From: Clostridia bacterium | Lineage (GTDB): Bacteria; Bacillota; Clostridia; Oscillospirales; Acutalibacteraceae | NCBI GenBank assembly: GCA_024404065.1 | Contig: JAKSQR010000001.1 | Span: 1-42,692 of the forward strand | Direction: 5' to 3' | Length of the DNA stretch: 42,692 nt | Shown here: piece by piece, positions 3,786 to 6,437 of the stretch | How the letters are laid out: each line of letters opens with the position of its first letter | How positions within the stretch are numbered: position 1 is the first letter of the stretch | The notes under the pieces: generated by a model | What the model was told of the DNA's origin: nothing | What the model saw: the letters and a program-made list of their open reading frames with translations, nothing else | The model's database searches: none | Program-made: the position numbers and the translations under genes

Positions 3786-5033
3786 ATGACATATCAGAAT
3801 GGTTTTATAAAAATCGGCAAGCTTCAGATAAGCATTAAATTTGTGCTGCTTGCCGCTGCAATACTTGTGCTGCTTGTTGCAATTATTTCAGGCGTTGCTC
3901 ATCAGAGCAAAATGAAAAAGGAAAGGCAGATTGCAGGCTACTCCTTTGAGGAGCTTAAAGAAATAAAAGACGCAGAATGTATCGGCGAAAAATTCATAGC
4001 CTATACAGATTCAAGCGATAAAAAAGGCATAATGACCCTTGACGGCACCATAACCGAAAAAGCAGAGCAGGAAGATATTTTTGCAGTGAGCGAAAAATGG
4101 GGTACAGTAAAATTTGTATGTGAGGGTCCCCGCTCAGAGTATATGCTTTTAATTGACCCCGAAAAGGGCGAAATACAGAAAAAGCAGTATCACGGCACCA
4201 TAGAGCCTGAGGAAATTGCAATATGGGCTGAGGAGCTTGACTGCGCAGTATTCGTAAATAAAAACGAAGAAACAACAACTGTTCCCACCACAAAGGAAGG
4301 GGACACAGAGGTTACCTCAACCACCAAAAAGATAGAGGCTATAAAGCCCGCAGAGCTTATGCTCTCAGCAGGTCTTCATCCAATCTCCAACTCAGTAAAG
4401 AAAAATATAAGATACGGCTACGTTAATGCTGACCTTCAGCTTGTTATAGCTATCAAGTACGACGAGGCAAAGGCTTTCAGCGATGGTCTTGCCGCCGTAA
4501 AGAAGGACGGCAAATGGGGCTATATAGACGAAACAGGCAAAAGTGTTATTGATTTCCAGTATGACGATGCATACGGCTTTGTAAACGGTCTTGCCCCCGT
4601 TCAGAGAAACGGTAAATGGGGCATCATCAATAAGAATAATGAGGATATGACATCCTTTAACCTTGAAAAAATACTGCAGGGCAAAGATGGTAAATACGTT
4701 GCAAAAATGGGCGGCAAGTGGGGTATACTCACACTTAACGAAGAAACAATGAGCCAGGTAAATGCAACCTCAAAGGTTGAAACCACCACAGAAACCGCTG
4801 ACGATGAGTATATTGTAAGAACAAATGGCAGCGCTCTTAATATGAGAGCAGCGGCTGACGCAAATTCTGCTAAAATAACGGAAATTCCTAATGGTACAGC
4901 AATAAAAATTTCAAAAATTTCTGGAAATTGGGCATACACAATATATGGCACTCACGAAGGTTGGGTGTACACACAATATATTGAAAAAGCAGTAAAATCA
5001 ACGGTTGCAGAACCTCAGTCAGAGGTTGACTGA
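3786..5033 (+). CDS. Membrane-anchored WG-repeat protein with C-terminal bacterial SH3 domain
   Basis: N-terminal TM helix, FSDGLAAVKKDGKWGYID-type WG repeats, T-rich linker, and LNMRAAA...W...GWV SH3b signature. GGAGG RBS. Confidence 0.85.
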   Translation: MTYQNGFIKIGKLQISIKFVLLAAAILVLLVAIISGVAHQSKMKKERQIAGYSFEELKEIKDAECIGEKFIAYTDSSDKKGIMTLDGTITEKAEQEDIFAVSEKWGTVKFVCEGPRSEYMLLIDPEKGEIQKKQYHGTIEPEEIAIWAEELDCAVFVNKNEETTTVPTTKEGDTEVTSTTKKIEAIKPAELMLSAGLHPISNSVKKNIRYGYVNADLQLVIAIKYDEAKAFSDGLAAVKKDGKWGYIDETGKSVIDFQYDDAYGFVNGLAPVQRNGKWGIINKNNEDMTSFNLEKILQGKDGKYVAKMGGKWGILTLNEETMSQVNATSKVETTTETADDEYIVRTNGSALNMRAAADANSAKITEIPNGTAIKISKISGNWAYTIYGTHEGWVYTQYIEKAVKSTVAEPQSEVD

Positions 5034-5056
5034 TAAGGTTTTTTGCAAAAAAATGC

Positions 5057-5085
5057 TTGACTATTACTGAATCACAGTATATAAT
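5057..5085 (+). promoter_or_regulatory. Strong sigma-A promoter with no protein gene behind it
   Basis: TTGACT-17 bp-TATAAT preceded by A-tract+TGC, the same context as the rpsJ (5990) and infC (40890) promoters. Confidence 0.8.
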
Positions 5086-5091
5086 AAGCGT

Positions 5092-5183
5092 GCATGAGAA
5101 ATCATGCGTCTGCATTTGTGAGCAACAATGACAGAGCCATCCGATAAAAGGCGGAGAATGTTCATCATTCTCCGCCTTTTATC
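5092..5183 (+). ncRNA. Candidate ~90-nt structured small RNA of unknown family
   Basis: Lies between the promoter and a terminator. Contains a GCATGA-GAAA-TCATGC tetraloop hairpin, a second hairpin (5110-5134) and an 18-bp perfect stem. No RBS. Confidence 0.6.
5143..5183. terminator. 18-bp perfect hairpin, potentially bidirectional terminator
   Basis: GATAAAAGGCGGAGAATG-TTCAT-CATTCTCCGCCTTTTATC. Confidence 0.8.
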
Positions 5184-5192
5184 ACCCATTCC

Positions 5193-5226
5193 ATTATTTT
5201 ATAAAATAATTTATTTTATATATAAT
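5193..5226 (+). promoter_or_regulatory. Second candidate promoter with an 18-bp palindrome over its -35
   Basis: TTTATA(5198)-17 bp-TATAAT(5221) and perfect palindrome ATTATTTTATAAAATAAT at 5193-5210. The region is very AT-rich, so a chance match is possible. Confidence 0.4.
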
Positions 5227-5299
5227 AATCCTTACTATGTAGTCTGCAAAAGAAAATGCAGCATAAAAGCAGGGATTATGTACGGAAGGGGAGGCAGAG

Positions 5300-5335
5300 G
5301 TGAAACGAAATCTGTTTTATGGATGGCTCTGGTAA
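5300..5335 (+). CDS. Candidate 11-aa mini-ORF MKRNLFYGWLW
   Basis: GGAGG at 5290-5294, GTG 5 nt later, TAA at 5333-5335. No homology evidence. Confidence 0.3.
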   Translation: MKRNLFYGWLW

Positions 5336-5805
5336 AGATATATTTCACCATAGTTTTTCGCATAGAAATAATTATTTAAGCTTCAGGACAGAAGACGAAA
5401 ATAATGAATATAACTATGATAATAATTACATTATATATAATATAGCAGAAAAAATTTGGCAACTAAGCCTGCGATTTATCCTGTGAAAAGGGACAGTGAT
5501 TTTTCTGAATTTTATTTAATTCTGAGATAATAACGCCTTGAAAACGGCTGTAAACAGCAACCTAAACGGTATTAAAACCGACCGTAATTGCAGCTCAGGT
5601 TTTGCAAATTTCTGCTTTGAAAATCTCTTTTTCAGATAAAATTTTGGATTTTTTAAGAAAAATTTCAAAAAAATTTCAGTTTTTTCAAAAAATTTTTTAA
5701 TGATTTTTAACCCAAAAAAGAAAAATTTTGAGGGTTTCTGAGAAAAATTCAGAAAAAATGTTTACAAAAATAAAAATTATCTTTGTAGGAATTAACAAAA
5801 ATTTT

Positions 5806-5849
5806 TCCTACATTTTGTGAAAAATCAAACTTCAGCACTACATCTTGTG
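5806..5849. promoter_or_regulatory. Tandem NrdR-box-like sites
   Basis: TCCTACATTTTGTG (5806-5819) and CACTACATCTTGTG (5836-5849), 30 bp apart, resembling the NrdR consensus acaCwAtATaTwGtgt. Confidence 0.45.
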
Positions 5850-5989
5850 GTTGTTATAGTTCATATATCATTACATTATATTAGGGCAAAAAATTGCTGC
5901 AATATGCACAGGGCGAAAAGCCTTGAAATACAAGAAAAAACCGGAAATTCAGATATGAAAAATTATTTGAAAAAATTTTTAAAATATGC

Positions 5990-6018
5990 TTGACATTAGT
6001 ATATATATATGATAATAT
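5990..6018 (+). promoter_or_regulatory. Sigma-A promoter of S10 operon
   Basis: TTGACA-17 bp-TAATAT with extended -10 TG and an A/T-rich UP element. Confidence 0.8.
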
Positions 6019-6074
6019 ACCGAAGCACGCTGTAAAGAAGGGGCGAATTATGCCCATATTTCAGCGACATGATA

Positions 6075-6150
6075 TGCGATGATGTGGGAGGTGGCCGTCC
6101 TCGAGGCGGGAAATTTCCACGGAGTATGTCCGATTTTCAAACCGGGCGAT
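6075..6150 (+). ncRNA. S10 (rpsJ) ribosomal-protein leader core
   Basis: TGCGATGATGTGGGAGGT...TTTCCACGGAG..TGTCCG resembles the conserved Firmicutes rpsJ leader. GTGGGA/TTCCAC helix, located in the rpsJ 5' UTR. Confidence 0.65.
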
Positions 6151-6437
6151 AATTTACCCAGGGGTGCACATGCGCTTCCTGCAGGTTTTTCGTCACAGTA
6201 CTCAAAAACCCAGCTACTTGCGAAAGCTGCGGACATTTGAGTGCAATGATGGAAAATGTCAGGTAGCCATTGTAATCTCCGTATGCCGTTTCCCAGGCAC
6301 ACAGGGTAAAGGTTAGTTGCAGATATGCGAAAGCAATCCCGGAAATAGTGTTTCCGGTTTTTGAATCGGAAGGGTTGAAACACCCGGGTCAGTTTTCAAA
6401 ATTTGCGTGCCCAACCAATTTTAAGGAGGCAAATCCA

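What the first reader, a model, noticed from the sequence alone, without database searches (positions are those of the whole stretch)
5057..5379. Orphan sRNA that is antisense to a neighbouring mini-ORF transcript (type-I-TA-like or RNA-regulated pair)
Seen, upstream unit: a near-consensus promoter (TTGACT-17-TATAAT, same AAAATGC-TTGAC context as the two ribosomal operon promoters) is followed by two hairpins and an 18-bp terminator, giving an ~90-nt RNA with no RBS. Seen, downstream unit on the same strand: a second -10 (5221), a hairpin (5227-5278), GGAGG plus GTG mini-ORF MKRNLFYGWLW (5300-5335), and an overlapping hydrophobic frame MALVKIYFTIVFRIEIII (5323-5379, or 33 aa from ATG 5278). 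The sRNA is co-linearly complementary to that message. CAGAGCCATCC-g-ATAAAA (5132-5149) pairs with TTTTAT-GGATGGCTCTG (5315-5331), 17 bp with one bulge. The terminator loop TTCAT (5161-5165) pairs with GTGAA over the start codon (5300-5304). CTCCGCCTTT (5170-5179) pairs with the RBS region GGAGGCAGAG, with one mismatch. Known: type I toxin-antitoxin systems (hok/sok, ibs/sib, tisB/istR) use this logic. Inference: this is an undescribed tandem, non-overlapping antisense pair controlling a small peptide or an RNA effector. I do not recognise either RNA.
Basis: partly seen in the sequence, partly recalled or inferred. Interest (0 to 1): 0.8.

Follow-up and report, generated by a model that had tools for sequence, protein, structure and literature searches.

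The report
Uncatalogued gut-clostridia small RNA, no toxin
This is a conserved, uncatalogued ~93-nucleotide RNA gene, found once in most genomes of one genus of uncultured gut bacteria, that likely regulates distant messages through a short exposed sequence; the proposed neighbouring toxin partner is missing from related species and varies between strains, so it is probably not a toxin-antitoxin pair.

Summary
The upstream RNA gene is real at DNA level. Promoter (5057-5085), two hairpins, a 7-nt unpaired linker GCCAUCC and an 18-bp terminator (about 5092-5184) recur as one full copy in 103 of 132 genomes of the genus (relatives are titled mostly Acutalibacteraceae). The terminator covaries and hairpin 1 changes sequence freely. 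Rfam has no family for it.

The pairing with the downstream unit is in the sequence (shuffles: 1 of 1000), but it is not conserved. No other genus genome of 131 carries the unit. The closest relative keeps the same seed, terminator loop and position before the S10 operon, yet lacks it. In three conspecific strains, the GTG start (2 strains), the TTTTAT arm (3) and the stop of the hydrophobic frame (2) change, with no listed compensation in the RNA. Only the 11-bp core duplex is energetically favourable, and the hydrophobic frame has no ribosome-binding site.

Verdict: a new orphan sRNA family, likely trans-acting through CCAUCC. Type I toxin-antitoxin is unlikely (about 7%); a species-specific local target remains possible (about 20%). 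Transcription was not shown.

The parts
3786..5033 (+). Upstream gene, WG-repeat plus SH3 protein (415 aa); the usual but not obligatory upstream neighbour of the RNA
   Evidence: Pfam PF14903 and PF08239; upstream in most printed loci, but not in L004, L011 or L179
5057..5085 (+). Sigma-70-type promoter of the RNA
   Evidence: 11 of 12 consensus; a TTGAC...TAnnnT pattern precedes 95 of 98 distinct homologues
5092..5184 (+). Predicted ~93-nt small RNA; start inferred 7 nt after the -10 box
   Evidence: Fold z -8.6; covariance model finds it in 103 of 132 genus genomes; homologues 78-101 nt
5092..5107 (+). Hairpin 1 at the 5' end; sequence variable, fold kept; absent in a few short homologues
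   Evidence: 69 distinct sequences among the 87 of 95 homologues that fold into three hairpins; short forms
5109..5135 (+). Hairpin 2 with conserved U-GAGCA-A apical loop (5119-5125)
   Evidence: Closing U-A in 59 of 59 distinct regions picked by a motif that includes it; stem rebuilt with other letters in divergent homologues; no two-sided change in alignment A1
5136..5142 (+). Unpaired linker GCCAUCC, the likely seed; CCAUCC is the most constant part
   Evidence: Unpaired probability about 0.7-0.9; CCATCC in 116 of 117 homologues picked by a motif that includes it
5143..5183 (+). 18-bp terminator hairpin with U-tracts on both strands
   Evidence: 100% complementary arms; 7 of 19 pairs with compensatory change
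5185..5210 (.). Left arm of an AT-rich inverted repeat that is complete in close relatives; similarity to relatives ends here
   Evidence: L002, L003, L179, L231
5198..5226 (+). Promoter-like site of the downstream unit (unverified; AT-rich)
   Evidence: 10 of 12 consensus; not found in relatives
5290..5318 (+). GGAGG-containing predicted hairpin; its loop is highly polymorphic between strains
   Evidence: Folds; 7 listed differences in 5299-5317
5300..5335 (+). 11-codon GTG mini-ORF with a strong SD; start codon lost in other strains
   Evidence: SD duplex -10.5 kcal/mol; 5301 T>C in X7 and X9
5315..5331 (+). Complement of the RNA seed: exact 11-mer 5321-5331 plus polymorphic TTTTAT extension
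   Evidence: 5315 differs in X7, X9, X10 and 5317 in X7, X9; no listed change in 5321-5331
5323..5379 (+). 18-codon hydrophobic frame without an SD; stop codon lost in other strains
   Evidence: SD duplex +0.1; 5377 T>G in X7 and X9; no family or homologue
5410..5413 (.). Indel point: strain X9 has about 970 more letters here and X7 continues with other sequence
   Evidence: Record 26 (1-195 and 1164-1269 fit) and record 17 with loose end
6070..6149 (+). S10-Clostridia leader of the downstream ribosomal operon; context only
   Evidence: Rfam RF03136, 42.8 bits

Best explanation
Window 5057-5184 is a stand-alone, genus-wide small RNA gene whose predicted ~93-nt product likely acts in trans, by pairing its exposed CCAUCC linker with start regions of unlinked mRNAs, and the complement 180 nt downstream is likely a species-specific coincidence. 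Shown: the promoter, fold and linker are conserved independently of any neighbour, and the downstream unit is not conserved. Inferred: transcription from about 5092; 5' hairpin and terminator as stabilising ends; seed pairing with GG-AUG-G, or with GGAGG through one bulged A, which would block ribosome loading. The targets are not identified.
For: One full copy in 103 of 132 genus genomes, 43 of 59 high-quality ones (second matches are the palindromic terminator read backwards, apart from a separate terminator in G099). Promoter pattern before 95 of 98 distinct homologues; three hairpins in 87 of 95; linker fully unpaired in 60 of 95. Terminator covaries (7 of 19 pairs). Downstream genes differ in identity and direction, so it is not a leader. 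Flanking stem arms change in divergent homologues while the GAGCA loop and CCAUCC stay. Downstream unit: not found in 131 genomes, absent from closest relative L179, 9-mer complement near 2 of 109 loci in 421,957 flank bases (about 3 expected by my arithmetic). An unpaired anti-AUG stretch between two stem-loops is the design of streptococcal csRNAs (PMC3091779, passages).
Against: No transcript was seen. No conserved target was found. The neighbour is the best seed partner in this genome (-25.5 kcal/mol, next -22.9), with shuffle frequency 1 of 1000, and its 11-mer has no listed change in X7 and X9 although 7 sites just upstream differ. The terminator stem is more conserved in sequence than termination needs (11 of 19 pairs never vary), which may mean protein binding instead. 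Motif counts are inflated because homologues were picked with those motifs, and kin are not independent.
Confidence: 0.55

Rival explanations
1. In this species only, the conserved RNA has gained a real local partner: an 11-bp duplex with the adjacent transcript, which would be either the leader of the variable ~970-nt cassette seen in other strains or a sponge that titrates the RNA.
For: Best seed site in the genome; net about -9.6 kcal/mol for 11 bp after opening both RNAs, cofold gain -10.9; no listed change in 5321-5331 in X7 and X9; 4 of 7 strain changes lie in the loop of the GGAGG hairpin and 2 add or strengthen pairs (read by hand).
Against: About 10% divergence leaves an 11-14-nt stretch unchanged roughly one time in four (my arithmetic); 18 difference rows were not shown; the site overlaps no conserved start; X2 has no cover at 5228-5473; no transcript evidence.
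Confidence: 0.2
2. The RNA works by binding a protein through the U-GAGCA-A loop and the long, sequence-conserved 3' helix, not by base pairing; the neighbour is again coincidence.
For: Loop nearly invariant; terminator stem letters conserved; no conserved mRNA target found. The loop resembles GNRA-like pentaloops such as boxB (recalled, from no call).
Against: A C-rich, anti-AUG single strand between two helices is typical of base-pairing sRNAs (PMC3091779 passages); no co-occurring protein gene was identified.
Confidence: 0.15
3. Type I toxin-antitoxin module in tandem layout: the RNA represses a toxic peptide encoded at 5300-5379.
For: The 18-codon frame just passes the loose filter of PMC2887945 (10 hydrophobic residues in 15; passage); the 11-codon ORF has a strong SD inside a predicted hairpin.
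Against: The hydrophobic frame has no SD. GTG start lost in X7 and X9, stop lost in X7 and X9, X9 contigs diverge before 5289 where the 33-codon start lies. No family or homologue. The RNA persists in 102 other genomes where the unit was not found. Loop and RBS pairings are unfavourable.
Confidence: 0.07
4. The complement is a decayed fold-back (inverted) copy of part of the RNA gene, made when this intergenic region was rearranged, and has no function.
For: The three matching segments are co-linear, and similarity to relatives breaks at about 5210.
Against: Outside the 11-mer the match is poor, and the other strains' alleles match less well at 5315 and 5317.
Confidence: 0.03

Closest known systems
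Streptococcal csRNAs (CiaR-dependent sRNAs; PMC3091779, passages)
   Same: Short RNA from a strong promoter; conserved unpaired stretch with CAU (anti-AUG) between stem-loops
   Different: No Rfam match; single copy; three hairpins; a 7-nt linker; found in a Clostridia genus; CiaR control not tested
Type I toxin-antitoxin systems (hok/sok, par fst/RNAII, ibs/sib, ldr/rdl per PMC2887945 passages; tisB/istR recalled)
   Same: A structured sRNA beside a complementary stretch and short ORFs, one hydrophobic
   Different: RNA conserved without the ORFs; ORFs not kept even within the species; no covariation; no SD on the hydrophobic frame; no toxin family match
Gram-positive C-rich-seed sRNAs such as RsaE/RoxS (recalled, from no call)
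   Same: Exposed C-rich motif able to pair with G-rich ribosome-binding sites
   Different: No sequence match in Rfam; one CCAUCC rather than repeated UCCC motifs
Rfam BTnc005 (Bacteroides sRNA), best E-value hit on the RNA
   Same: 5' hairpin and terminator align weakly
   Different: 24.9 bits against a gathering score of 174.8, with 103 model positions missing: not a member

Membership tests
Type I toxin-antitoxin | Small (<60 aa) hydrophobic protein | tested here: inconclusive
   The window's 18-codon frame has 10 hydrophobic residues in 15 (filter of PMC2887945) but also K, R and E; its stop is lost in 2 of the 2 strains that cover 5377
Type I toxin-antitoxin | Toxin ORF has a translation start signal | tested here: not met
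   SD duplex +0.1 for ATG 5323 and -4.5 for ATG 5278; the strong SD (-10.5) serves GTG 5300, which is lost in X7 and X9
Type I toxin-antitoxin | Antitoxin pairs with the toxin mRNA so as to block translation | tested here: inconclusive
   Only the 11-bp duplex is net favourable (about -9.6); 17 bp about -2; loop about +2; RBS arm about +19 kcal/mol
Type I toxin-antitoxin | Toxin and antitoxin co-occur and co-vary | tested here: not met
   RNA in 103 of 132 genomes; unit in 0 of 131 others; strain changes at 5301, 5315, 5317 with no listed change in the RNA
Type I toxin-antitoxin | Homology to a known toxin family | tested here: not met
   0 Pfam and 0 NCBIfam families for the 33-, 42- and 55-aa frames, 0 Pfam for the 83-aa frame; 0 hits among 1.84 billion representatives for the 45-residue read-through. 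The 11-aa ORF was too short to scan
Type I toxin-antitoxin | Toxicity relieved by the RNA | not testable with these tools
   Needs expression in a laboratory strain
csRNA | Unpaired anti-SD or anti-AUG stretch between stem-loops | tested here: met
   GCCAUCC unpaired; feature as described in PMC3091779
csRNA | Sequence and structure match to the family models | tested here: not met
   No such hit at gathering score or at E up to 10
csRNA | CiaR-dependent promoter | not tested
   No CiaR site search was run
Any Rfam 15 family | Score at or above the gathering threshold | tested here: not met
   Only RF03136 at 6070-6149 in the whole window
Cis-regulatory leader or riboswitch | Consistent co-directional downstream gene | tested here: not met
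   Downstream genes differ and are often convergent
Trans-acting base-pairing sRNA | Conserved complementary site in unlinked mRNAs | tested here: inconclusive
   No strong start-region site among 1078 predicted genes of G000; prmA 3' site carries a central mismatch in 25 of 30 genomes
Trans-acting base-pairing sRNA | Transcribed as a discrete RNA | tested here: inconclusive
   Three RNA runs had no contig over 4900-5570 and barely held the organism

The most novel reading that the evidence does not exclude
A core chromosomal sRNA has captured a newly arrived, strain-variable neighbour as an 11-bp target (leader of a ~970-nt cassette, or a sponge), so that an sRNA-target or proto toxin-antitoxin pair is seen while it forms within one species.
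Probability: 0.15. Interest if true: 0.6.

Novelty: new member of a known kind. Interest (0 to 1): 0.3.

Why it matters
I found no small RNA described for Acutalibacteraceae. This one is single-copy, has an rRNA-protein-like strong promoter and has a compact two-motif design (GAGCA loop, CCAUCC linker). That makes it a clean candidate for a new RNA family and for target mapping. It does not add a new toxin-antitoxin layout. If the local pairing proved real, it would be a rare view of an sRNA gaining a target within a species.

Tried and rejected
RNA evidence: three metatranscriptome runs (X18-X20) gave no contig over 4900-5570 and only two short near-identical pieces near the S10 leader at depth 2-3; uninformative. 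X14 (DNA) and X2 also leave the unit uncovered, which proves nothing.

Distant homologues: 35 of 151 family genomes matched the model at E <= 0.05, but only the two genus genomes scored above 100 bits and the best outsider 39.8. Of 8 outsiders inspected, 7 show terminator-like hairpins and none shows the GAGCA hairpin; L241 has a similar linker before its terminator. In 4 genomes without a model hit, no RNA was seen behind the WG/SH3 gene; the 4 motif matches were not inspected. Viral contigs: 0 for the RNA motif, 2 uninspected matches for an 18-mer of the unit. A strict metagenome pattern found 0.

Targets: the seed 11-mer occurs in 45 of 61 genomes, but 44 of 48 non-RNA rows lie in open frames of 230 codons or more. 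The recurring prmA 3' site reads GGC at the central Gly in 21 of 30 genomes. Its Leu codon is CTC in 25 of 30, against 178 of 706 in the gene and 74 of 198 before Cys in genus loci; 9 of 31 further genomes have Arg there. A weak lead only. A 28-aa hydrophobic ORF with two GGATGGC sites (G000:C119) looked toxin-like but weakly matches DUF1648 (E 0.002) and has no full-length DNA match in 131 other genomes.

The ~970-nt segment could not be retrieved: 0 of 132 genomes and 0 viral contigs for its first 25 letters. Read-through frames on either strand found no longer homologue. MITE or IS ends were rejected because the left arm is an ancestral part of the RNA. Four look-ups of earlier findings returned nothing.

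Full report
Setting. The interval lies between a WG-repeat/SH3 gene (3786-5033) and the S10 operon, whose leader is the window's only Rfam hit (RF03136). An exact degenerate 30-mer of the RNA core matched 86 stretches among GTDB genomes; the 80 listed are titled mostly Acutalibacteraceae or unclassified Clostridia gut MAGs. It also matched 47 metagenome stretches.

Observation. The predicted RNA 5092-5184 folds into hairpin 1, hairpin 2 with loop GAGCA, a free linker GCCAUCC and an 18-bp terminator (z -8.6). The neighbour complement is 11 nt exact, 17 bp with a bulge. It is matched in 1 of 1000 shuffles by energy and in 14 of 1000 by exact length, and it is the best seed partner in the 1.47-Mb, 83% complete genome.

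The RNA is a genus-wide gene. BLAST found it in 30 of 36 other genus genomes. A covariance model built from 36 homologues found it in 103 of 132, one full copy each. Outside the genus, 33 of 149 family genomes gave weak hits of at most 39.8 bits, none convincing among the 8 inspected. Of 98 distinct homologues, 95 have the promoter pattern; 87 of those 95 fold into three hairpins, with 69 different hairpin-1 sequences. The terminator has 7 of 19 pairs with two-sided changes. Hairpin 2 shows none in that alignment, but divergent homologues rebuild its stem with other letters. The constant parts are the U-GAGCA-A loop and CCAUCC (115 and 116 of 117); these counts are inflated because the picking pattern contained the motifs. 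Downstream genes vary in identity and direction, so it is not a leader.

The partner is not conserved between species. DNA 5205-5500 matched 19 of 131 other genomes only in pieces of 24-56 nt, 18 of them in the AT-rich stretch 5384-5452; the 8 of these inspected are greA promoters. None covers 5290-5335. Among 109 distinct RNA loci with 421,957 flank bases, a same-strand 9-mer complement occurs twice: here, and in L231, where it is the arm of a local hairpin. About 3 are expected by my arithmetic. L179 has the same seed, terminator and loop and also precedes S10, yet has no such unit and a shorter spacer. In its genome and four other relatives, the 17-mer has no match with fewer than 3 mismatches except one coding site (L087).

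The partner is unstable within the species. Contigs of four runs from four studies were laid on 4900-6100. No difference is listed in 5057-5184, and X2's contig has one change over 4900-5189. The unit differs at 5262, 5265, 5267, 5299, 5301, 5302, 5306, 5307, 5315, 5317, 5338, 5340, 5359, 5373 and 5377. This removes the GTG start and the loop pairing (X7, X9), turns U-A pairs of the extension into mismatches (5315 in X7, X9, X10; 5317 in X7, X9) and removes the stop of the hydrophobic frame (X7, X9). X9 contigs also diverge before 5289. Against my reading: 5321-5331 has no listed change, and most changes at 5299-5317 spare or strengthen the GGAGG hairpin. However, 18 rows were not shown, and an unchanged 11-14 nt is expected about one time in four at this divergence. 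X9 carries about 970 extra letters at 5410-5413 and X7 continues differently there, so the unit may be the flank of a variable cassette that this strain lacks. I could not retrieve that segment.

Energetics and ORFs. After the cost of opening both RNAs, the 7-bp and 11-bp duplexes are favourable (about -5.7 and -9.6 kcal/mol), the 17-bp one is marginal (about -2), and the loop (about +2) and RBS-arm (about +19) pairings are not. The three-part co-linear pairing is therefore unlikely to form. The hydrophobic frame has no SD. None of four frames is in the 15-billion-protein collection. No family matched, and read-through frames found no homologue.

Mechanism. Shown: a conserved promoter-to-terminator unit with two constant motifs that does not depend on its neighbours. 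Inferred: a stable RNA whose linker pairs with GG-AUG-G or GGAGG at translation starts in trans, as proposed for csRNAs (PMC3091779, passages). Target searches were inconclusive, so protein binding through the loop remains a rival. RNA runs were uninformative.

Literature. PMC2887945: passages, used for type I toxin features. PMC3091779: passages. PMC8040213: search listing, and 6 of 8 held supplementary files searched for four motifs with no hit; two archives were unreadable and three further files too large. These may hold the alignments, and homologues occur in human gut assemblies, so an earlier unnamed prediction cannot be excluded. Searches for Acutalibacteraceae with small RNA (0 papers), for the motif letters (26 papers; the 20 listed look unrelated by title) and for sRNA with family names (7 papers, listing only) showed no description. 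Searches were seen as listings only.

Verdict. Observation confirmed; interpretation partly supported. A new orphan sRNA family of a known kind, interest 0.3. Type I toxin-antitoxin about 7%; real species-specific local pairing about 20%.

Noticed in passing
window 5212-5226 and 5430-5444: A 15-nt inverted repeat, each arm holding a TATAAT box pointing inward, brackets the downstream unit. It could be convergent promoters or AT-rich chance.
   Followed up: no
window 5410-5413: About 970 letters present in strain X9 (and different sequence in X7) with a 4-letter overlap at the junction: an insertion element or a deleted gene.
   Followed up: partly
window 5447-5465: Nine differences in 19 nt in strain X9: a second hypervariable patch.
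   Followed up: no
window 5185-5210; L002, L003, L005, L231: An AT-rich hairpin directly follows the terminator in one subclade; only its left arm remains in the window.
   Followed up: partly
L068, L069 (G076); G000:C107:27391 and C125:279: Terminator-like hairpins whose stems contain the RNA's seed sequence; G076 has no model hit for the RNA.
   Followed up: no
L361:337-860 (G000:C119): SPP1-type holin gene followed by a 28-aa hydrophobic ORF with SD, two GGATGGC sites and a terminator, just upstream of rpsO; weak DUF1648 match, probably a remnant.
   Followed up: yes
prmA 3' end, L271-L300 and L309-L340: An 8+3 bp seed complement about 25-35 nt before a coupled downstream gene, with CTC-biased Leu codon but a central mismatch.
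   Followed up: yes
L047 (G076) and G000:C46:19366: Seed complement over a start codon (L047) and at the apparent 5' end of a leader, 16 nt before an SD (C46): candidate targets, conservation untested.
   Followed up: no
window 5115-5129; L018, L019, L305, L306: Hairpin 2 as DNA resembles a lac operator lacking its four central letters (recalled, from no call); probably coincidence.
   Followed up: no
window 5840-5855; upstream of the RNA promoter in L005, L016, L017: A palindrome resembling an NrdR box (recalled, from no call) lies upstream of the S10 promoter and of some RNA promoters.
   Followed up: no
window 6040-6420: The S10 leader region is about 380 nt, much longer than the 80-nt Rfam match, and 76% alike in L179.
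   Followed up: no
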